Assembly (NCBI GenBank): GCA_030018585.1
Contig: JASEHZ010000001.1
Location: forward strand, 9,484 to 73,483
Direction of reading: 5' to 3'
Length of the DNA stretch: 64,000 bases
Origin: Patescibacteria group bacterium
GTDB taxonomy: Bacteria > Patescibacteriota > Minisyncoccia > UBA6257 > GWB1-50-10
The notes beneath the pieces were generated by a model. That model saw nothing but the letters and a program-made list of their open reading frames with translations, was not told the origin of the DNA and made no database searches. The position numbers and the translations under genes were made by a program. Below are positions 4,982 to 37,207 of the stretch, one piece after another (the first letter of the stretch is position 1; every line of letters begins with the position of its first letter).

Positions 4982-5718
4982 CTATATTTCTAAGTTAACC
5001 GGTCGGTTAATTTTCGTCAACCGTACCCATCTTCTTTCGATATTTTTTACTTTCACATCTTCCCGTTCTAAAACTGCTTGCGTCCATCCGTATACTCGAT
5101 GGATATAATCGCCGCTTTTGGGGACCTCAACTCTTATCGTGCCGTAGTAAAGGTTATTTTTCTTATAGCCCTTACTGAATGGTTTGACATAACTCTTCCC
5201 AAAATTTTTTATTGGTATTCCGGTGAGGTCTGACCAAAATCTTTTTATTTCTTCTCTGTTTTGCTGCGGATAGATATTAAGTCGAGCTTTCAATGTGTTC
5301 CTCCTGATGTTAAATATTTTTTCAATCCAGTGAACCATAAACAATATGAGGCGTGGATCAGAATTCGTTACCTGAAACACATTTCCTTTCGTGCCCTCGC
5401 CCCAATACAATGCCGCTCCAAAGAGTTTGAATGTTTGTTCTGAAATGGGTATGGTGATTTCTCTTTTTGCGTGTTCAATAATTTTTCGTTGACTTCCCGT
5501 TTCCTTCGCTCCTTCTGTGATTGAGCTCCTCGGGAGAGGACTTGAATTTGTTTCGTATAAAGTCGCTCTCGATGTTCGGCTTTAAGGGGGATACTCTTTA
5601 ACCACAAACTTAATGTGCTTTTTGAAACCCCGATTATTTTCCGTATTTCATTGTAGCTTAATCCCTTTTTTCTTAGCGCTTCGGCCCCTTTCTTTAATTT
5701 AAGGTAATTATTTCCCAT
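4982..5718 (-). pseudogene. HTH-domain protein split over two frames (5368-5718 HTH N-terminus; 4982-5410 C-terminal domain of unknown type)
   Basis: N-terminal ORF has resolvase-like HTH GLSYNEIRKIIGVSKSTLSLWLK; downstream ORF overlaps by 43 nt in another frame; abuts tRNA-Lys. Confidence 0.35.
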
Positions 5719-12778: not shown

Positions 12779-13159
12779 ATGAAATTATATACGGAAGTGA
12801 CTGAAACAAATGGCGCCAATATTCCGATTCGCTGGTGTATTAATAAAGAAGAATTTGAGTATTTAAAACATAACGAGATTAAAGACCCGTATTTGCTTAT
12901 TGTGGTAGTGCCTGAGCGTGGTAGATCTCTAGTGCAACGTTATCTTGTGCCGATTGGCCGATTAATGGAATATATTCAATTACGCGGCATCCCGGTAAAA
13001 ATCGCATCATGGCTTCTATTGTTTGGAGTGATCCTTGGACTCATAGAGGGTATGAGGGCTATGGGGGATTGTGGGAAAGATATTTGGGAAGAGGCTATAG
13101 TAGTAATTATCGCATTGGCATTCTTAATTACGATGGCGTTATTAATAAATCTGACTTAG
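12779..13159 (+). CDS. Hypothetical membrane protein (possibly N-terminal part of a frameshifted larger gene)
   Basis: 126-aa ORF overlapping the next ORF by 151 nt in another frame. Confidence 0.3.
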   Translation: MKLYTEVTETNGANIPIRWCINKEEFEYLKHNEIKDPYLLIVVVPERGRSLVQRYLVPIGRLMEYIQLRGIPVKIASWLLLFGVILGLIEGMRAMGDCGKDIWEEAIVVIIALAFLITMALLINLT

Positions 13160-13974
13160 GTCTTCATCTTGGTTATGATGAACTTTATGTTGATGTGCCA
13201 AAAGAACTTTTTGCTAAAGAACCGCCAGAATGGGAAAAGCGTTGGGTTAATTTCTGGTTTGAAACAAAAGCAGTTGATGAGTGTAAGTATAAAAAGCGCC
13301 GCATAGTTGCTTATATACCGTTTTTACAGCCAATGTGCGTTTTGTTTTGGTTAATAACAAAGATGATTTGGCGGTATCTTGTAGCTTTGATTTGTCTTTT
13401 GGTAGGCAGAGGAATTAATTTAAAACCGCTCGTTCGTCCTTGGGCAGAGGATTGCGAGGATTTATATAAATATCCAGACACAAAATTTTTTGTTGAGAAA
13501 AAACCATTGTTTTGGCCGCTTATCCCCGGAGTTTCTGTTTTTTTCTTGATAACCGGATATTTATTGTGGAAATTTGATATTGAACATTTTGCCTGGCTTA
13601 CCTGGTTTTATGCTGATTGGTATATGCTGTTAGTTGGGATAATAATAGTGATTGCTATTTTGTTTGCTCTGGAGTTTTTTGTAGTAGGATTTGTTTACTT
13701 TTTTAGCAGATTAATTGACTATTTTGCTGATAAAGCAAAAAAAGCAAAATCACAACCAACTATGACTGAAGAAACTTTAAAAGCGGAACAAAAGCGGAAA
13801 AAGGGACAGGAAAAGTTAAAGAGAAAATATCAGGAATTTGAAACATTACTTGCTTGTGATGGCGACCAAGAAAAATTTAAGCCAACTCTCGAAGCTTTAC
13901 CATCAAGCCATCGCACGATTTACCTTCGTTTTAAGGATTTAAAAGCAAAAGTTTGCAAACCTTTTGCCGGATAA
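13009..13974 (+). CDS. Hypothetical polytopic membrane protein with K/E-rich C-terminal tail
   Basis: 321-aa ORF; true start may be internal or fused to 12779 ORF by a frameshift. Confidence 0.35.
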   Translation: MASIVWSDPWTHRGYEGYGGLWERYLGRGYSSNYRIGILNYDGVINKSDLGLHLGYDELYVDVPKELFAKEPPEWEKRWVNFWFETKAVDECKYKKRRIVAYIPFLQPMCVLFWLITKMIWRYLVALICLLVGRGINLKPLVRPWAEDCEDLYKYPDTKFFVEKKPLFWPLIPGVSVFFLITGYLLWKFDIEHFAWLTWFYADWYMLLVGIIIVIAILFALEFFVVGFVYFFSRLIDYFADKAKKAKSQPTMTEETLKAEQKRKKGQEKLKRKYQEFETLLACDGDQEKFKPTLEALPSSHRTIYLRFKDLKAKVCKPFAG

Positions 13975-28084: not shown

Positions 28085-28246
28085 AACCACGGGCTTATCC
28101 AGCCTTCGTAGTCCCGACTTATCGGGACGGAGTAGGCCGCTCGTGGTTTCTTTTGGAGTACAAGCTTCGCTTGCCTATGGTGGTATGACGTGTCATACCA
28201 CCATGGGATGCCTTCATCTACGGGCTTACGCCCGTGGTTTTCTTGA
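28085..28246 (+). ncRNA. Candidate structured small RNA ending in an intrinsic terminator (identity unknown)
   Basis: GC-rich island in AT-rich 850-nt gene-free gap; hairpins GTCCCGA-CTTA-TCGGGAC, GGTGGTATGAC-GT-GTCATACCACC, terminal CACGGGC-TTAC-GCCCGTGG + TTTTCTT. Confidence 0.3.
28219..28246 (+). terminator. Intrinsic terminator CACGGGC-TTAC-GCCCGTGG-TTTTCTT
   Basis: 8-bp GC stem with T-run. Confidence 0.6.
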
Positions 28247-28576
28247 AAGGGTATATAAAAATAGTCTGCGTACGCAGACTATTTATTGCCTAATTTAAAA
28301 TAAAAATAAAAAAGCGGACTGAAAAAACATACAAGAATTATTGAAATAACAATATTGATAATGGATAAAAACGGAGTAAAACACCAAGCAATATTTATAA
28401 ACATTCTCTTAATTTTGACAGGCATTACAAATCCTTTTAATGAGTAATAAAGAACTTGATTTAGCTTATTATAAGCAACTAAAAATTGCAATCTTCCATT
28501 CTTTTGTAGGGGGTGAGGAATAAAAAATTATCCCGCCATTCCATGGAATGACGGGATTGATTTTTACTTAAATCGA

Positions 28577-29176
28577 TTATAACCACTTAACCATTAGTGC
28601 TATTAAAATAATTATTGCGCCTAGGATCGCGGCATGCCAAGATCGTTTCGTAACTTTTTCTATTTTTATCTTATTTTCGTCACGATTTCCGCGAAGAGAG
28701 GTTGTTTCTTCTTGATAATAAGCAAAACTTAATGAAATTATCAGGAAACCAATTGCCCAAGCTGCTTCATGAGCAAAGAACTTTTGGGCAAGTAGAGCGC
28801 CGCCGCCCATGAAAATTACCCAAGCTAAAAACTTCAACAATCCCCAGATAACAGTGCAGATCAGAAATTCCCAAATCACGGTTACAATAAGAATTTCCCA
28901 GAGAAAATACAAAAGCCAGCTTACTCCAACAATCACGATGATAAATGGCCAAAATATTGAAAAGAGCATTTGGTCCCCAAGCAAAGAACTCCTTCTTTCA
29001 ATAGGCATTTCTGGTTTAGAAAGAATTTCCCATCCGCCAGCTAATGCTTTATCAAAAAAAGTATCAGGCGTTGTATAGAATACATGGTAATAATAATGTG
29101 TGGCTAAACCTCGACCGATATTTAGGGAAATCGTGATAATAATCGTCCAAGTCAAGATTTTCTTGAAAAGTTTCAT
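28577..29176 (-). CDS. Hypothetical polytopic membrane protein
   Basis: 199 aa, several TM helices. Confidence 0.35.
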   Translation of the reverse strand: MKLFKKILTWTIIITISLNIGRGLATHYYYHVFYTTPDTFFDKALAGGWEILSKPEMPIERRSSLLGDQMLFSIFWPFIIVIVGVSWLLYFLWEILIVTVIWEFLICTVIWGLLKFLAWVIFMGGGALLAQKFFAHEAAWAIGFLIISLSFAYYQEETTSLRGNRDENKIKIEKVTKRSWHAAILGAIIILIALMVKWL

Positions 29177-29243: not shown

Positions 29244-30413
29244 ATGAAAAAGTCAAGTGTTAAAAAGCAAGGAAAAATAAGGGTTTTTGTCGCGATGTCT
29301 GGCGGTGTTGATTCATCTGTGGCAGCTTATTTACTTAAAAAACAGGGCTATGATGTGACCGGCGTTTTTATGAAATGTTTTAATATTGACGGCTGCGCGG
29401 AAAAAGACGCATTTGATGCGAGGCGGGTAGCGGAACATTTGAAAATTCCTTTTTATGTTTTTGATTTTGAAAAAGAATATAAAAAAAGAGTGGTTAAGTA
29501 TATGGTAGATGGCTATCGCGAAGGGCTTACGCCCAATCCGGATGTGATGTGCAATAAAGAAATTAAGTTCGGGTTGTTTTTGGAAAAAGCGTTAAAGCTT
29601 GGGGCGGATTATGTGGCGACCGGGCATTATGTGCGTATTCGTGAGTTTGAAAGTCAAAAGTTGAAAGTTAAAAGGATCGAAGAAATAAAAAACTTTAAAC
29701 TTGATAAACTTTATAAACTTTTTACTGCTTGCGACGCAAGCAAGGACCAGAGTTATTTTTTATGGACATTAACGCAGAATGAGTTGCAATATTGTTTGTT
29801 TCCGGTTGGCGATTATTTAAAAAGCGAAGTGCGCGCTATTGCAAAAAAAGCTGGATTGCCGACAGCTGAAAAAAAAGACTCGCAGGGTATTTGTTTTTTG
29901 GGCGATGTGTCAATCCGCGATTTTTTGAAAAATTACATTAAGCCGAAAAAAGGCGTGATTATGACAACAGACGGCAAAAAAATCGGCGAGCATAACGGTG
30001 TTTGGTTTTATACAATTGGCCAGCGGCATGGGCTTAATTTAAAAACCAAGAATCAAGAATTAAGAATAAAAGGGAAATACGAAACAAAACCACATTATGT
30101 GGTTTTGAAAAGCGTAAAAACAAATACGCTTGTTGTTGCTGAAGGCGAGGATAATCCCGTATTAAAGCAAAAAGAAATTGAGCTTATTAATTTGAGTTTT
30201 TTACGTCCCGTAATTCATAATTCATTATTCAAGATTCAAGTCTTGGTTCGTGTTCGTTATCGTCAGCCACTTACAGAAGCTACGCTTTTTCTGGAAAAGG
30301 AAAATTTAGCGCGGCTTCAATTTAAAACTCCGCAAAAGTTTATTGCTTCAGGCCAATCAGCGGTTTTTTATACTGATAGTGGTGAAATGTTGGGCGGCGG
30401 CGTGATTTTATAG
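29244..30413 (+). CDS. mnmA: tRNA-specific 2-thiouridylase MnmA
   Basis: PP-loop SGGVDSS; 389 aa with MnmA-like C-terminal domains. Confidence 0.85.
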   Translation: MKKSSVKKQGKIRVFVAMSGGVDSSVAAYLLKKQGYDVTGVFMKCFNIDGCAEKDAFDARRVAEHLKIPFYVFDFEKEYKKRVVKYMVDGYREGLTPNPDVMCNKEIKFGLFLEKALKLGADYVATGHYVRIREFESQKLKVKRIEEIKNFKLDKLYKLFTACDASKDQSYFLWTLTQNELQYCLFPVGDYLKSEVRAIAKKAGLPTAEKKDSQGICFLGDVSIRDFLKNYIKPKKGVIMTTDGKKIGEHNGVWFYTIGQRHGLNLKTKNQELRIKGKYETKPHYVVLKSVKTNTLVVAEGEDNPVLKQKEIELINLSFLRPVIHNSLFKIQVLVRVRYRQPLTEATLFLEKENLARLQFKTPQKFIASGQSAVFYTDSGEMLGGGVIL

Positions 30414-30651
30414 GTTTGAAGTTAGAATTAGAGAAAGAAAACCTTTCTTCAACGGACAAAGTTTCCGCTCGAATAAATTATCCTCGCTTAGCGTCGGTTA
30501 TAGACGGGAAATTGCGAACTCTCCGCCCGTCAGCGGATCAAACAACGCAATTTCCCGATAACCTTCCTTTTCGCTCGGTAATTTATAAATCTCGTTCCAA
30601 CAGTCCGGTTTCAGAAAGTTTTTCTTTTTCTCTTTATGTTGAATTATTTAT

Positions 30652-32975
30652 TTGATTGGACCAAAATTAAATAAAATGCGGTCGTACGATATTTTCTTTT
30701 TTAGTTCGTTTTTCTTTTTGATTGGTATTTTGTTTGCGAGCTTAGGTTTAAAATTGAGCACTTTAATTATCGCTTTAATCGGTATTATTTCCTTTTTTAT
30801 TTTCGGTTTAATACGAAAAAACAAAAGATTTTTTTGGCTTGCCGGTCTTGCGGTTTTTATTTTAATCGGCGCTCTTTACTATACTTACGATGATTTAAAA
30901 TTTCATAAGTCGGCAAATATCGAATTTGGCAAAAAAATATTGTTTTCCGGCATTATCATTAACAACCCGGTTATTAAAATACTAACCAGGAATTTGTATT
31001 AAAACTTTCAAAACCGCAAAACGGAAAAATTTTAGTGAAAGCGTCGCTTTATCCAAGATTTGAATATGGAGATAATTTGAAAATTAACGGTTTGATTCAA
31101 AAACCTTCTACGGCGGAATATGCTGGATATCTTGAAAAGGAAAAAATTTCTGGTGTTGTATCTTTTTCAGAAATCAATATTTTGAGCCGTCACAACGGTT
31201 CGGTTTTAAAAGAAAAACTTTTTAAAATAAAAAATACAATTAGTGAATCATTCCAAAAATTTTTGAACGTTAAAGAAGCGGCATTTTTAAATGGCCTTAC
31301 TTTAGGCGGGACAAGCGGCCTTTCAGATGATTTTAAAAGAGCAATGAGTTTGAGCGGGACAACGCATTTGGTCGCGCTTTCGGGATATAATATTACGATT
31401 CTTGTCTGGATTACGATGGGAATATTTATTTATTTTTTGCCGAGGCGTTTGTCTTTTATTTTGACTTTTATCGCTATATTCGCATTTGTGGCCATGACTG
31501 GCGCGGAAAGTTCAGTGGTACGGGCCGGCATTATGGGCATGCTTATACTTTTAGCTCGGGAAGTAGGCAGGATTTATGATTTTAGAAATGCTATTATTTT
31601 AGCCGCGCTTGTAATGGTTTTAATTAATCCGAAAGTACTTGTTTTTGATATTGGTTTTGAGCTTTCGTTTCTGGCGCTTTTGGGTATTGTTTATTTGCGA
31701 CCCACGCTTATTAAAATTTTCAAAATCAAAGAAGATATAAGTTTTCTTTCTTGGCGGGATAATTTGCTTACCACGGCTTCGGCTCAGCTTGCGGTGGCGC
31801 CGATTTTAATCGCAAATTTCGGAAATTTTTCGCTGACATCTCTTTTTCTAATGTTCTTATTTTGGAATTAGTGCCACTCACAATGATGTTCGGTTTTTTT
31901 ATTGCGGTTGCGAGTTTTATTTCATATTATCTTGCGCTCGTGTTTAGTTGGTTTGCGATGATTTTGTTGAAGTTTGAAATTTTTGTTATAGAACTTTTTG
32001 CAAAAATAAGCGTTCCTGTTAGCCTAAATTTGACTCTGTTTGTTATTGTTTTTTATTATTCGCTTTTAGTTAGCATTATTTTTTATGTTCAAAGAAATTA
32101 TAGAAAAAATTAATATACATAAACCGGTTTTTGTGATTTTAACAACGGTTTTTTTAGTGCTTGATATTTTTATTTATTCGCAGATTTTTGCGTTGGATTC
32201 GGGCAATAAAAATCTCGAGCTTTATTTTTTGAATGTTGGTCAGGGTGATAGTGAATTAGTTGTTTTGCCGGGAGGAGTAAAAGTTTTAATTGATGGCGGA
32301 CCATTAAACAGCAAGGTTTTAGAAGGGCTTTCAAAAGCATTGCCAGTTGGAGAACGTTATATTGACTTAGTGATATTAAGTCACCCGGAAATTGATCATT
32401 TTGGCGGGCTTATTGACGTTGTGAGGCGTTATAAAATTGGCGCTTTTATTTGGAACGGCGAACAAGGAGAAGCGCGCGCTTTTCAAGACTTGAAATCAAT
32501 TCTGGTTAAAAACGATATTGAGACAATTGCTTTGGGTGTCGGCGATTCAATTAGTTATCAAAACAGTCATCTTAACGTTCTTTCGCCGCATCAAAAGCTT
32601 TTAAAAAGCAAAAGCGTTAACGAAAAAACGCTGGTTTTGTTGCTTTCAAGTAATAATTCTAGGACTGTTTTTGCGGGAGACATTAATGAAAAAATTGAAA
32701 AACAAATTGTCGCTCAGTTTGATTCAAGGGTTGATGTTTTGAAAGTTGCGCATCATGGTTCTAAGTTTTCTTCGTCAGCTAATTTTTTAAGTGCTTTAAG
32801 ACCGAAGATAGCTGTAATTGAAGTCGGTAAGAATAGTTATGGTCATCCGGCAAAAACTGTTTTAGACAGGCTGGCGGAGGTGGGCGCGCGGGTTTTTAGA
32901 ACTGATGAGAATGGCACAACAAAACTTACGATTAATAATGGTTCTATTAAAGTTTTTTATAATATTGCCTTATGA
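30652..32975 (+). pseudogene. comEC: ComEC/Rec2 DNA-uptake channel split into four ORFs (30652-31002 DUF4131-like N-terminus; 31035-31871 and 31862-32113 competence domain; 32085-32975 metallo-beta-lactamase domain)
   Basis: Competence-domain motif SGTTHLVALSGYNITIL; MBL motifs VGQGDS...HPEIDH...HHGSK; adjacent frames are open across each junction; junctions near A/T homopolymers. Confidence 0.65.
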
Positions 32976-33043: not shown

Positions 33044-33769
33044 ATGACTGACGTTTTAGTTTTAAATCCGAATGTTTTTGGTTTTCATGAGTTGCGGCGA
33101 TTTTATAAAAAGTATCTTTTATCTGCGTTTCTTATTGCTGTTTTTTTGCATTTGACGATGATCGGTGTTTATTTTCTAGTTGAATATTTAACAGAGGAAG
33201 AAGAACCGGTTATATTTATTCGACTTACAACGTATACTGATTTAGGTCCACCGCCGTCATTAATTGAAACAGAAGCAATGCCAGCGGTCGCCGTGTCTGC
33301 GTTAACCGCAAAGCCAAGCTTGGGGATACCAGTGCCGGTTCCTGATGTGGATGTAAGTCCCGAACAAACAATTGCAACTCAACAGGAGTTATCTGCAATT
33401 CAAAGTCCTGTATTACAACAGCAGCAAATGGAGGGTGGGGAAATTAAAATTGAGCAGGATATTTTTGTTGAAGAAGAACCACCCGATTTTGTGCCAGTAG
33501 AAAAACAACCGGTGCCAGTTAATAGGGTTATGCCCGAATATCCCGAAATTGCTCGTCGAGCCGGAGTAGAAGGTACGGTTTGGGTGAAGATGCTTGTGGG
33601 CAAGGACGGTAAAGTTAGAAAAGCAGTGGTGCAAAAAAGCGACGCGGAAATTTTTAATGAAGCAGCAATCAAAGCTGCGCTCCAATGGGTGTTTACGCCC
33701 GCCATGATGAATAATGGTCCGGTTGCGGTTTGGGCTTCGGTCCCGCTTCGTTTTAAGTTGAATAAGTAA
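33044..33769 (+). CDS. TonB C-terminal-domain protein (N-terminal TM, Pro/Glu-rich linker)
   Basis: C-terminus VMPEYPEIARRAGVEGTVWVKMLVGKDGKV...FTPAMMNNGPVAVWASVPLRF matches TonB_C fold signature. Confidence 0.55.
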   Translation: MTDVLVLNPNVFGFHELRRFYKKYLLSAFLIAVFLHLTMIGVYFLVEYLTEEEEPVIFIRLTTYTDLGPPPSLIETEAMPAVAVSALTAKPSLGIPVPVPDVDVSPEQTIATQQELSAIQSPVLQQQQMEGGEIKIEQDIFVEEEPPDFVPVEKQPVPVNRVMPEYPEIARRAGVEGTVWVKMLVGKDGKVRKAVVQKSDAEIFNEAAIKAALQWVFTPAMMNNGPVAVWASVPLRFKLNK

Positions 33770-33780
33770 ATTATTACCCC

Positions 33781-33845
33781 GTCTATTATATTAATAGACG
33801 GGATTTATCCTCCCACCCATACATAGGTGGGAGGATTTATTTTTT
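33781..33845 (+). terminator. Double-hairpin intrinsic terminator
   Basis: CCCGTCTATTA-TAT-TAATAGACGGG and CCTCCCACC-CATACATA-GGTGGGAGG followed by ATTTATTTTTTCTT. Confidence 0.7.
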
Positions 33846-33878
33846 CTTAAAATCGTGCTAAAATTTTTTCATTGAATT

Positions 33879-36620: not shown

Positions 36621-37207
36621 ATGAAATTTAAAGAGGAAAAAACCTTAGTTTTAATTAAACCGGATGGTGTAAAAAGAGGGTTAACCGGCGAGATTATCCG
36701 CCGGATTGAACAACGCGGTTTGAAAATAATTGCCTTGAAAATGTTTTGGGCAACAGAAAAAGATTTAGCCAGACATTATCCAAAATCAAAAGAGTATTTT
36801 ATAAATCTGGGCAATAAGACACTGGCTACGTATGCGAAGTATGATTTGGATGCCAAAAAGGAAATTGGCACCGATGACTCGGAAAAAATCGGCGAATTGG
36901 TTCATGGCTGGCTTGTTGATTTTATGACCTCCGGACCAATTGTTAAAATGGTTGTGCAAGGATTGCATGCGGCTGAAATGGTACGGAAGCTTGTGGGGAG
37001 CACCATGCCTTCACAAGCAGAAATGGGGACAGTAAGAGGTGATTTTTCGGTTGATTCAGCGGCACTCGCCAAATGCAAAAAAGGGCAGTGCGTAATTTAG
37101 TTCATGCTTCCGGCACTATTGAAGAAGCAGAAAAAGAAATTTCTCTTTGGTTTGCGTTTGAGGAAATCCATGAATATAAGCGCGCCGAGGAAGATATTAT
37201 GTTTTAG
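36621..37207 (+). CDS. ndk: Nucleoside diphosphate kinase, interrupted by a +1 frameshift at an A6 run (~37076-37081)
   Basis: N-terminal LVLIKPDGVKRG; C-terminal NLVHASGTIEEAEKEISLWF is read in the next frame and ends at 37207; adding one A restores the frame. Confidence 0.75.

What the first reader, a model, noticed from the sequence alone, without database searches (positions are those of the whole stretch)
30652..32975. ComEC competence channel split into four ORFs at homopolymer-adjacent sites
All three ComEC modules (DUF4131-like N-terminus, competence domain, MBL nuclease domain) are present and in order. However the reading frame changes or is interrupted three times (about 30975-31035, 31862-31871, 32085-32113), and each time the neighbouring frame stays open. 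Either comEC is decaying, which is notable given the intact LTD and nuclease-like neighbours, or these are assembly indels.
Basis: seen in the sequence. Interest (0 to 1): 0.55.

Follow-up and report, generated by a model that had tools for sequence, protein, structure and literature searches.

The report
Two-gene comEC with probable assembly frameshifts
This is an ordinary DNA-uptake (comEC) locus of a candidate-phyla-radiation (CPR) bacterium: one of the three reported breaks is the normal boundary between two genes, and the other two are single-base losses that most likely come from an error-prone assembly, not from decay of comEC.

Summary
The three frame changes exist, but they are not equivalent.

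**Junction 3 (32085-32113) is a natural gene boundary.** All 40 related Patescibacteria loci tested encode a DUF4131+Competence protein of about 480 aa. Each is followed by a separate ATG-initiated, membrane-anchored MBL protein of about 295 aa. The overlaps or gaps vary and all three relative frames occur. The closest relative has the same 29-nt overlap with no indel.

**Junctions 1 and 2 are specific to this window.** Each is a one-base loss relative to the closest relative:
- A5 to A4 at 30976-30979.
- TTATTT to T5 at 31843-31847.

Adding two bases restores a 479-aa ORF with no stops. It is 82% identical to the relative, and dN/dS is about 0.12 in every fragment.

**The frameshifts are not specific to comEC.** The same window carries at least four more frameshifts, all in the same direction: an HTH-like gene, a conserved hypothetical gene, an LTD gene, and NDK (upstream of its catalytic His). 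The same test over about 380 kb of related loci gave only 4 singleton events.

**Verdict.** Consensus indel errors in a public MAG (NCBI locus tags QMD50_*) are the most likely cause, at about 0.65. Real recent frameshifts in a decaying genome remain possible, at about 0.27. Reads are needed to decide. Interest is low.

The parts
30676..32113 (+). comEC channel gene (DUF4131/OB fold plus Competence domain). It would be 479 aa after two single-base repairs. As given, it is in three frames.
   Evidence: Pfam calls the domains. NCBIfam TIGR00360 matches, and the protein maps to TIGR00361 profile positions 114-371. tblastn shows residues 1-101, 102-391 and 391-479 in frames 1, 0 and 2, whereas every relative gives a single HSP in one frame.
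30676..31002 (+). Fragment 1 (frame 1, 108 aa from the ATG). It is annotated publicly as hypothetical protein MDI6733913.1.
30976..30979 (+). Junction 1 lesion: an A4 run where the closest relative has A5 (ATTAAAAAC). This is a one-base loss and shifts the frame by -1.
   Evidence: Nucleotide alignments with L005. Adding one A restores ...NNPVIKNTNQEFVLKL....
30978..31871 (+). Fragment 2 (frame 0). The annotated version starts at GTG 31035 (278 aa, MDI6733914.1, named ComEC/Rec2 family).
31843..31847 (+). Junction 2 lesion: a T5 run where the closest relative has CTTATTTCC. This is a one-base loss and shifts the frame by -1.
   Evidence: Adding one T restores ...FGNFSLTSLFSNVLILELVPL..., and the Competence domain then matches in one stretch.
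31844..32113 (+). Fragment 3 (frame 2), the last transmembrane helices of the channel gene, ending at the natural stop 32111-32113. It is not annotated in the public record.
32085..32113 (+). A 29-nt overlap between the stop of the channel gene and the ATG of the MBL gene. This is the natural, conserved gene boundary.
   Evidence: The same 29-nt overlap occurs in L001/L005 and L002-4. There is no indel against L005. Other relatives have ATGA or other overlaps, or gaps.
32085..32975 (+). Separate MBL-fold gene (296 aa) with an N-terminal transmembrane helix. It corresponds to the ComEC C-terminal nuclease domain. Its motif is HPEIDH rather than HxHxDH. It is intact.
   Evidence: Pfam Lactamase_B. 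It maps to TIGR00361 positions 424-663 of 663. N-termini and motifs are listed. Public annotation: MDI6733915.1.
33807..33846 (+). Terminator-like hairpin with a T run after the downstream TonB_C gene. It is the probable end of the transcription unit; this is an inference from a consensus match only.

Best explanation
The locus is the two-gene form of comEC that is normal for this branch of Patescibacteria (relatives are labelled Jorgensen-, Wolfe-, Lipton- and Paceibacterota).

- The first gene encodes a 479-aa channel subunit with the OB fold and the Competence domain.
- The second gene is a separate 296-aa MBL subunit anchored by its own N-terminal transmembrane helix.
- The second gene starts 29 nt before the stop of the first and has no recognisable Shine-Dalgarno sequence. 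Translational coupling is therefore inferred, not shown.

The third frame change is this natural gene boundary.

The first two frame changes are single-base losses at short A/T runs. They most likely arose as consensus errors in the deposited metagenome-assembled genome. They belong to a window-wide excess of frameshifts in the same direction that also hit unrelated genes. On this reading the organism has a functional comEC.

What is shown: the coordinates, the conserved fission, the position of the indels, the excess of frameshifts in the window, and the lack of relaxed selection. What is inferred: that the indels are errors and not real mutations.
For: **Junction 3 is natural**
- In 40 of 40 related loci that carry both parts, ORF1 has its own stop and ORF2 has its own ATG. 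Overlaps are 4 to 41 nt (101 nt at one locus if its first ATG is used), gaps are 2 to 465 nt, and all three relative frames occur.
- L001 and L002-4 have the same 29-nt overlap.
- The best protein hits are 426-524 aa with DUF4131+Competence only.
- The two ORFs map collinearly onto TIGR00361.

**Junctions 1 and 2 are single-base losses**
- A5 to A4 and TTATTT to T5, relative to L005.
- Two inserted bases give a 479-aa ORF with no stops that is 81.6% identical to L005.

**The frameshifts are not specific to comEC**
- Further frameshifts in the -1 direction lie at about 5540, 12985, 22306 and 37073.
- The NDK shift lies upstream of the catalytic-His segment NLVHASGT. That segment is still 42/45 identical to L005 in the shifted frame.

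**Control**
- The same test gives 5 events in the 21.8 kb of the window that could be tested, against 4 singleton events in about 380 kb of 41 related loci.
- All six window events run in the same direction.

**No sign of relaxed selection**
- dN/dS for the three comEC fragments is 0.124, 0.122 and 0.108. Intact neighbours range from 0.06 to 0.16.
- comEC-N has 1.5 times the window's density of A/T runs of 4 or more. Two hits in it are not a clear excess: about 0.5 are expected, giving P of about 0.09 by my own estimate.
Against: - No reads were available and the sequencing platform of the MAG is unknown. If it is a well-covered Illumina assembly, indel errors at A4 or T5 runs would be very unusual, and real mutations would become the better reading.
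- Two of the six events are not at clear homopolymers. The one at 12985 could be a CG duplication, and the one at 5540 has no run.
- A low dN/dS cannot exclude very recent inactivation, because dS to the only close relative is 0.85-1.5.
- No genome of the same species exists in the collections searched, so independent confirmation of the sequence was impossible.
Confidence: 0.65

Rival explanations
1. The frameshifts are real. This patescibacterial lineage or population is accumulating single-base deletions, for example through drift or weak mismatch repair. It has very recently inactivated the comEC channel gene, along with NDK, an LTD protein and others. The MBL gene is still intact.
For: - Six frameshifts are present in the deposited sequence, and the annotators kept them.
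- Deletion bias and slippage at homopolymers are also features of real mutation (established knowledge).
- comEC carries two lesions, and multiple lesions are typical of pseudogenes.
- The closest relative's contig name (NODE_..._cov_...) indicates a SPAdes assembly, which usually means short reads. If the window's MAG was made the same way, indel errors would be rare (inference).
Against: - No lesion other than single frame shifts is seen: no in-frame stops after repair and no larger deletions.
- The downstream parts are as conserved as the upstream parts: NDK is 93% identical after the shift, and comEC dN/dS is about 0.12 throughout.
- Five of about 60 genes broken in a streamlined CPR genome, including a housekeeping kinase, would be exceptional. 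Related MAG loci show almost none.
Confidence: 0.27
2. The frame changes are decoded on purpose. Programmed -1 ribosomal frameshifting or transcriptional slippage at the A/T runs would yield full-length ComEC, possibly as a regulatory or phase-variation switch.
For: Junctions 1 and 2 lie at short A and T runs, and the neighbouring frame is open at each site.
Against: - No relative has a frameshift at either site. All have one continuous frame.
- The runs are only 4-5 nt, well below the runs of about 9 or more known to support slippage (established knowledge).
- Neither site has an in-frame X XXY YYZ heptamer (read from the sequence).
- The six frameshift sites in the window share no motif.
- At junction 3 the relative frame differs between relatives (+1, -1 or 0), which excludes a conserved recoding signal.
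Confidence: 0.03
3. All three junctions are lesions in a formerly fused 770-aa comEC.
For: - A fused relative exists further away: P0020, 755 aa, 41% identity, covering 93% of the query.
- Deleting one base in the T6 or A6 run near junction 3 would fuse the frames.
Against: - The closest relative has the identical junction sequence with no indel.
- All 40 loci of the clade are split, each with a proper ATG and an N-terminal transmembrane helix on the MBL protein.
Confidence: 0.02

Closest known systems
Canonical single-polypeptide ComEC/Rec2 (for example Bacillus subtilis ComEC; NCBIfam TIGR00361; Pfam architecture DUF4131-Competence-Lactamase_B)
   Same: The same three modules occur in the same order. 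The two ORFs map collinearly to TIGR00361 positions 114-371 and 424-663. By homology they are presumed to have the same role: a DNA import channel plus a nuclease for the non-transported strand (PMC8579336, PMC12455585).
   Different: The MBL module is a separate gene product with its own transmembrane anchor. Neither ORF reaches the TIGR00361 cut-off (56.5 and 119.8 bits against 190). The MBL motif is HPEIDH instead of HxHxDH.
Two-gene comEC loci of related Patescibacteria MAGs (for example JASEIC010000010.1 = L001/L005; Jorgensenbacteria loci L002-L004; L006-L042)
   Same: The gene order mnmA, comEC channel gene, MBL gene is the same. The overlap is the same 29 nt in L001 and L002-4. The MBL protein has the same N-terminal transmembrane helix and the same HxQ/ExDH motif.
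   Different: In all of them the channel gene is one continuous frame. Only the window has the two single-base losses.
'DC-profile' ComEC proteins scored as lacking Lactamase_B (Pimentel and Zhang 2018, PMC6299819)
   Same: The channel gene on its own has exactly this profile (DUF4131+Competence).
   Different: Here the 'missing' domain is encoded by the adjacent downstream gene. That paper's text does not use the words separate, split or adjacent. Some scored domain losses may therefore be gene fissions; this is an inference.
Homopolymer indel errors in consensus sequences from long-read or ion-semiconductor assemblies (established knowledge, not tested here)
   Same: The lesions are single-base and deletion-biased, mostly at short A/T runs. 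They are scattered over unrelated genes at about one per 4-10 kb, and the reading frames are otherwise intact.
   Different: The platform of this MAG is unknown. Two events are not at clear homopolymers.

Membership tests
ComEC/Rec2 competence protein family | Competence transmembrane domain (PF03772) present at full length | tested here: met
   After the two-base repair the match is 3e-44 over profile positions 1-269 of 270. In the raw sequence it is split: fragment 2 covers 1-185. TIGR00360 scores 70.8 bits, above its cut-off of 36.5.
ComEC/Rec2 competence protein family | N-terminal DUF4131/OB-fold domain | tested here: met
   PF13567 scores 51.4 bits over positions 3-163 of 165 across junction 1 after repair.
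ComEC/Rec2 competence protein family | One uninterrupted reading frame for the channel protein | tested here: not met
   The deposited sequence has three frames, with breaks at 30976-30979 and 31843-31847.
Canonical three-domain ComEC (TIGR00361 equivalog) | MBL domain fused to the C-terminus of the channel polypeptide, with a score above the equivalog cut-off | tested here: not met
   The MBL domain is a separate ORF with its own ATG. The two ORFs score 56.5 and 119.8 bits against a cut-off of 190.
Canonical three-domain ComEC (TIGR00361 equivalog) | HxHxDH metal-binding motif in the MBL domain | tested here: not met
   The window has HPEIDH. Most relatives in the split clade have H-x-Q/E-x-D-H, while more distant homologues have HPHxDH. 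The consequence for activity was not tested.
Two-gene (fission) comEC of Paceibacteria-type Patescibacteria | The channel ORF ends before the last transmembrane helix, and the adjacent downstream ORF starts with ATG and encodes a transmembrane helix plus an MBL domain | tested here: met
   The window matches the pattern seen in 40 of 40 loci. The boundary sequence is the same as in L005.
Programmed ribosomal frameshift / transcriptional slippage site | Frameshift conserved in relatives, with a conserved slippery motif | tested here: not met
   No relative is frameshifted at junction 1 or 2. The relative frames at junction 3 vary. The six sites share no motif.
Pseudogene (real decay) | Disabling lesions confirmed in the organism's DNA, together with relaxed selection | tested here: inconclusive
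   The lesions are present in the record. dN/dS is 0.11-0.12 and there are no secondary lesions. No reads or sibling genome were available.
ComEC/Rec2 competence protein family | Mediates DNA import across the cytoplasmic membrane | not testable with these tools
   This needs genetics or biochemistry.

The most novel reading that the evidence does not exclude
The six frameshifts are real. This patescibacterium would then be caught in very recent, genome-wide gene inactivation by single-base deletions. It would have just lost its ComEC channel, which is near-universal in CPR bacteria and thought to supply them with nucleotides and DNA, together with NDK, while keeping the separate MBL subunit.

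A second, independent point is almost certainly real but only modestly novel. ComEC is split into a channel gene and a membrane-anchored MBL gene with an HxQ/ExDH motif across this whole clade. Some surveys that score 'loss' of the nuclease domain may therefore be counting fissions.
Probability: 0.25. Interest if true: 0.45.

Novelty: new member of a known kind. Interest (0 to 1): 0.18.

Why it matters
- **For genome scanning.** A run of adjacent ORFs that carry successive domains of a known multidomain protein is not necessarily a broken gene. Here one 'break' is a conserved gene fission. The other two belong to a contig-wide excess of indels that should be checked against reads before any claim of pseudogenes is made.
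- **For ComEC biology.** The clade-wide two-gene form shows that the nuclease module can be supplied as a separate membrane-anchored protein. This bears on the open question raised in PMC8579336 of how ComECs without a C-terminal domain dispose of the non-transported strand.
- **If the frameshifts were real.** Loss of ComEC and NDK in a CPR bacterium would be noteworthy, but the present evidence favours artefact.

Tried and rejected
1. **Exact look-up of the window's proteins on contigs**. Nothing was on record, so neither the source contig nor independent copies could be fetched. Exact look-up among protein clusters did work. It identified the NCBI MAG (QMD50_*, contig of 74,457 bp) but not the sequencing platform.
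2. **Searches for a sibling genome of the same species.** The best protein hit is 82% identical, the GTDB-representative scan gave 69% as its best MBL match, and the JGI metagenome scan returned a single hit at 35%.
3. **Literature search** for the MAG, its relative or a Yessentuki origin. Nothing was found.
4. **Homopolymer length spectrum** of the window against relatives, as a fingerprint of long-read compression. The two were indistinguishable.
5. **Scan for nonsense mutations** through stops inside tblastn alignments. It was swamped by spurious off-frame ORF queries and was not used.
6. **Apparent frameshift at about 42482 on the minus strand**. Rejected, because that region is rpsG/fusA on the plus strand with full-length Pfam matches.
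7. **Other adjacent ORF pairs.** L21, CorA, S12/S7/EF-G, PRPP synthase and the tRNA-binding protein gave full-length domain matches with no split.
8. **Gene fission in Clostridium.** The MBL homologue in C. perfringens (L071) is a stand-alone lipoprotein that is not next to comEC. It says nothing about fission.
9. **Rfam** at gathering threshold and in E-value mode on the region upstream of comEC. No family matched.
10. **Protein search with the translated hairpin element**. No hits.
11. **Promoter scan**. The number of matches was no greater than in shuffled sequence.

Full report
**1. What is in the sequence**

On the + strand there are four consecutive ORFs: 30652-31002, 31035-31871, 31862-32113 and 32085-32975. 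Their frames (coordinate mod 3) are 1, 0, 2 and 0.

At each change both frames are open over a short zone: 30978-31002, 31763-31871 and 32070-32113.

Pfam finds part of DUF4131 in the first ORF, the first 185 of 270 Competence positions in the second, nothing in the third, and Lactamase_B in the fourth. A conceptual repair gives DUF4131 at 3-163 of 165, Competence at 1-269 of 270 in one stretch, and Lactamase_B.

The likely start is ATG 30676, because relatives align from that Met and the public annotation uses it.

**2. Junction 3 is a natural gene boundary**

The best hit is 82% identical.
- The contigs of the two best hits show a channel gene of 457/478 aa followed by a separate Lactamase_B gene of 295/300 aa. 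The two overlap by 29 nt, as in the window.
- A scan of GTDB species representatives with the MBL ORF gave 76 loci.
- In all 40 Patescibacteria loci that contain both parts, the channel ORF has its own stop and the MBL ORF its own ATG. Overlaps are 4, 8, 11, 14, 16, 17, 20, 29 or 41 nt (101 nt at one locus if its first ATG is used), or there are gaps of 2 to 465 nt. All three relative frames occur. Several have the classic ATGA overlap. None is fused.
- Against the closest relative (L005, JASEIC010000010.1) the junction sequence TTTTTTATGTTCAAAGAAAT(T/A)ATAGAAAAAATTAAT is conserved with no indel.
- Every MBL ORF begins with a short polar stretch and one hydrophobic helix.
- The two window ORFs map collinearly to positions 114-371 and 424-663 of the full-length ComEC model TIGR00361.

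This is an old gene fission that cuts before the last transmembrane helix. The varying frames exclude a conserved recoding signal. No Shine-Dalgarno sequence precedes the ATG, so I infer translational coupling. That step is inference only.

**3. Junctions 1 and 2 are unique to the window**

In every relative the channel protein aligns as one HSP in one frame. Only the window splits, into residues 1-101, 102-391 and 391-479.

Nucleotide alignment with L005 places one-base gaps in the window at two sites:

| Junction | L005 | Window | Window run |
|---|---|---|---|
| 1 | GTTATTAAAAAC | GTTATT-AAAAT | A4 (L005 has A5) |
| 2 | CTTATTTCC | CTT-TTTCT | T5 |

Adding one A and one T gives a 479-aa ORF with no stops that is 81.6% identical to L005.

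**4. The frameshifts are not specific to comEC**

I translated all ORFs of 80 aa or more from the related loci and searched them against the window. This flagged further collinear frame changes:

- **LTD gene, about 22306.** The first 78 aa are 72% identical in one frame and the rest 69% identical in another. A T4 run lies at the junction.
- **NDK, 37073.** L005 reads CCAATATGC where the window reads CCAA-ATGC. The shift lies upstream of the catalytic-His segment NLVHASGT, which is still 42/45 identical to L005 in the new frame.
- **HTH-like gene, about 5540 on the minus strand.** The reference is weaker, at 28-38% identity.
- **Gene 12779-13974.** This sixth case came from a full HMMER search. 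Homologues are 370-420 aa. Their first ~68 residues match frame 2 and the remainder matches frame 1, with the junction near 12985.

All six shifts run in the same direction, equivalent to the loss of one base.

As a control, the same test over 41 related loci (about 380 kb testable) gave only 4 events, each supported by a single query. The window gave 5 events in 21.8 kb testable, three of them supported by 8-16 queries.

Other housekeeping genes in the window are intact: L21, S12, S7, EF-G and PRPP synthase.

comEC-N has 1.5 times the window's density of A/T runs of 4 or more. Two hits in 1.4 kb are therefore not a clear excess over the local rate. My estimate is about 0.5 expected, giving P of about 0.09.

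**5. Selection**

| Gene or fragment | dN/dS against L005 |
|---|---|
| Repaired channel gene | 0.125 |
| Fragment 1 | 0.124 |
| Fragment 2 | 0.122 |
| Fragment 3 | 0.108 |
| Seven neighbouring genes | 0.06-0.16 |

There is no sign of relaxed constraint and no secondary lesion. With dS of 0.85-1.5, this only shows that any inactivation would be very recent.

**6. Source**

Exact look-up identifies the window as part of a 74,457-bp contig of an NCBI MAG labelled 'Patescibacteria group bacterium', with locus tags QMD50_*. The annotators called:

- fragment 1 a hypothetical protein (MDI6733913.1);
- fragment 2 a ComEC/Rec2 family protein (MDI6733914.1);
- the MBL ORF an MBL fold metallo-hydrolase (MDI6733915.1).

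I could not find the sequencing platform or a paper. No genome of the same species exists in the collections searched.

**7. Interpretation**

- **Best explanation (0.65).** This is a normal two-gene comEC whose channel gene carries two consensus indel errors. These belong to a contig-wide excess of deletion-type errors. The density (about one per 4-10 kb), the single direction, the preference for short A/T runs, the hits in unrelated genes including NDK, and the intact conservation downstream of each shift all fit this reading. A streamlined CPR genome with about 8% freshly broken genes would be exceptional.
- **Main rival (0.27).** The mutations are real and very recent, in a lineage under drift. 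This would gain weight if the MAG proves to be a well-covered short-read assembly.
- **Programmed frameshifting or slippage (0.03).** It lacks every defining feature.
- **The one-gene-into-four model (0.02).** It is refuted for junction 3.

**8. Comparison with what is known**

The modules and their order are those of canonical ComEC. The C-terminal MBL domain of ComEC is a metal-dependent nuclease that is important for transformation in B. subtilis (PMC8579336; see also PMC12455585). This locus differs in two ways:

- It has the clade-wide fission.
- Its metal-binding motif is H-x-Q/E-x-D-H instead of HxHxDH. More distant homologues keep HPHxDH.

The survey of ComEC domain architectures scores DUF4131+Competence proteins as lacking Lactamase_B, and its text does not mention adjacent separate genes (PMC6299819). 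PMC8579336 notes that how ComECs without the C-terminal domain handle the non-transported strand is an open question. The fission seen here offers one answer for this clade. It is visible in public annotations and is only modestly novel.

**9. Verdict**

- The feature as framed (comEC decaying into four ORFs) is most likely not biological.
- Interest is low (0.18).
- Reads at six named positions would settle the question.

Noticed in passing
window 30430-30636 (between the mnmA stop at 30413 and the comEC ATG at 30676); L005/L001 6306-6512: A stretch of about 207 nt folds into a long rod-like hairpin (-66 to -71 kcal/mol for the 207-nt core in the two copies; the 247-nt stretch 30414-30660 gives -69 kcal/mol, z = -4.1 against shuffles). 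It is 92.8% identical between the window and the closest relative, while the flanking genes are only 78-85% identical.

In the window it is intergenic. In the relative it lies in-frame inside the mnmA ORF, in a variable loop, making that MnmA 460 aa instead of 389 aa. This resembles a small mobile palindromic element of the kind that can insert in-frame into genes.

One compensatory pair was seen (C-G to U-A). There was no Rfam match, no further copies in the fetched loci, and no protein hits for its translation.
   Followed up: partly
window 36621-37207, shift at about 37073: The nucleoside diphosphate kinase gene is frameshifted by a one-base loss relative to L005. The shift lies upstream of the catalytic-His segment, which stays 93% identical to L005 in the new frame.
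   Followed up: yes
In addition, the two LTD genes of the relative (252 and 346 aa, in different frames) correspond here to one long open frame with about 190 extra nt between them.
   Followed up: partly
window 12779-13974, shift at about 12985: A conserved hypothetical membrane protein, whose homologues are 370-420 aa, is split between two frames. The junction TTACGCGGCAT could be a CG duplication instead of a homopolymer loss. The public annotation keeps only a 296-aa piece (MDI6733897.1).
   Followed up: yes
window about 5069-5694, minus strand, shift at about 5540: An HTH-containing gene appears frameshifted relative to a 217-aa homologue in L009, which is only 28-38% identical. There is no homopolymer at the junction.
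   Followed up: partly
MBL ORFs of window 32085-32975 and loci L001-L037: In the clade with the split comEC, the MBL metal-binding motif is H-x-Q/E-x-D-H (window: HPEIDH). More distant homologues, both fused and stand-alone, keep HPHxDH. Whether the split-clade enzyme is an active nuclease is unknown.
   Followed up: partly
window 33044-33769: A 241-aa protein with a TonB C-terminal domain (PF03544, 72 bits) lies between the MBL gene and asnS. It is absent at this position in the closest relative. A TonB_C protein is unexpected in a Patescibacterium. It is followed by a strong terminator-like hairpin at 33807-33836.
   Followed up: no
window 27725-28580: The intergenic gap between efp and the next gene is unusually long (about 850 nt, against about 350 nt in L005). 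It contains short matches to L005 5051-5207 in both orientations, which suggests repeated or rearranged sequence.
   Followed up: no
L071 9887-10765 (Clostridium perfringens), and L069, L072, L073: Clostridium species carry a stand-alone lipoprotein-type homologue of the ComEC MBL domain, with a signal peptide and a Cys lipobox. It is not adjacent to comEC. Clostridiaceae are scored in PMC6299819 as having lost this domain.
   Followed up: no
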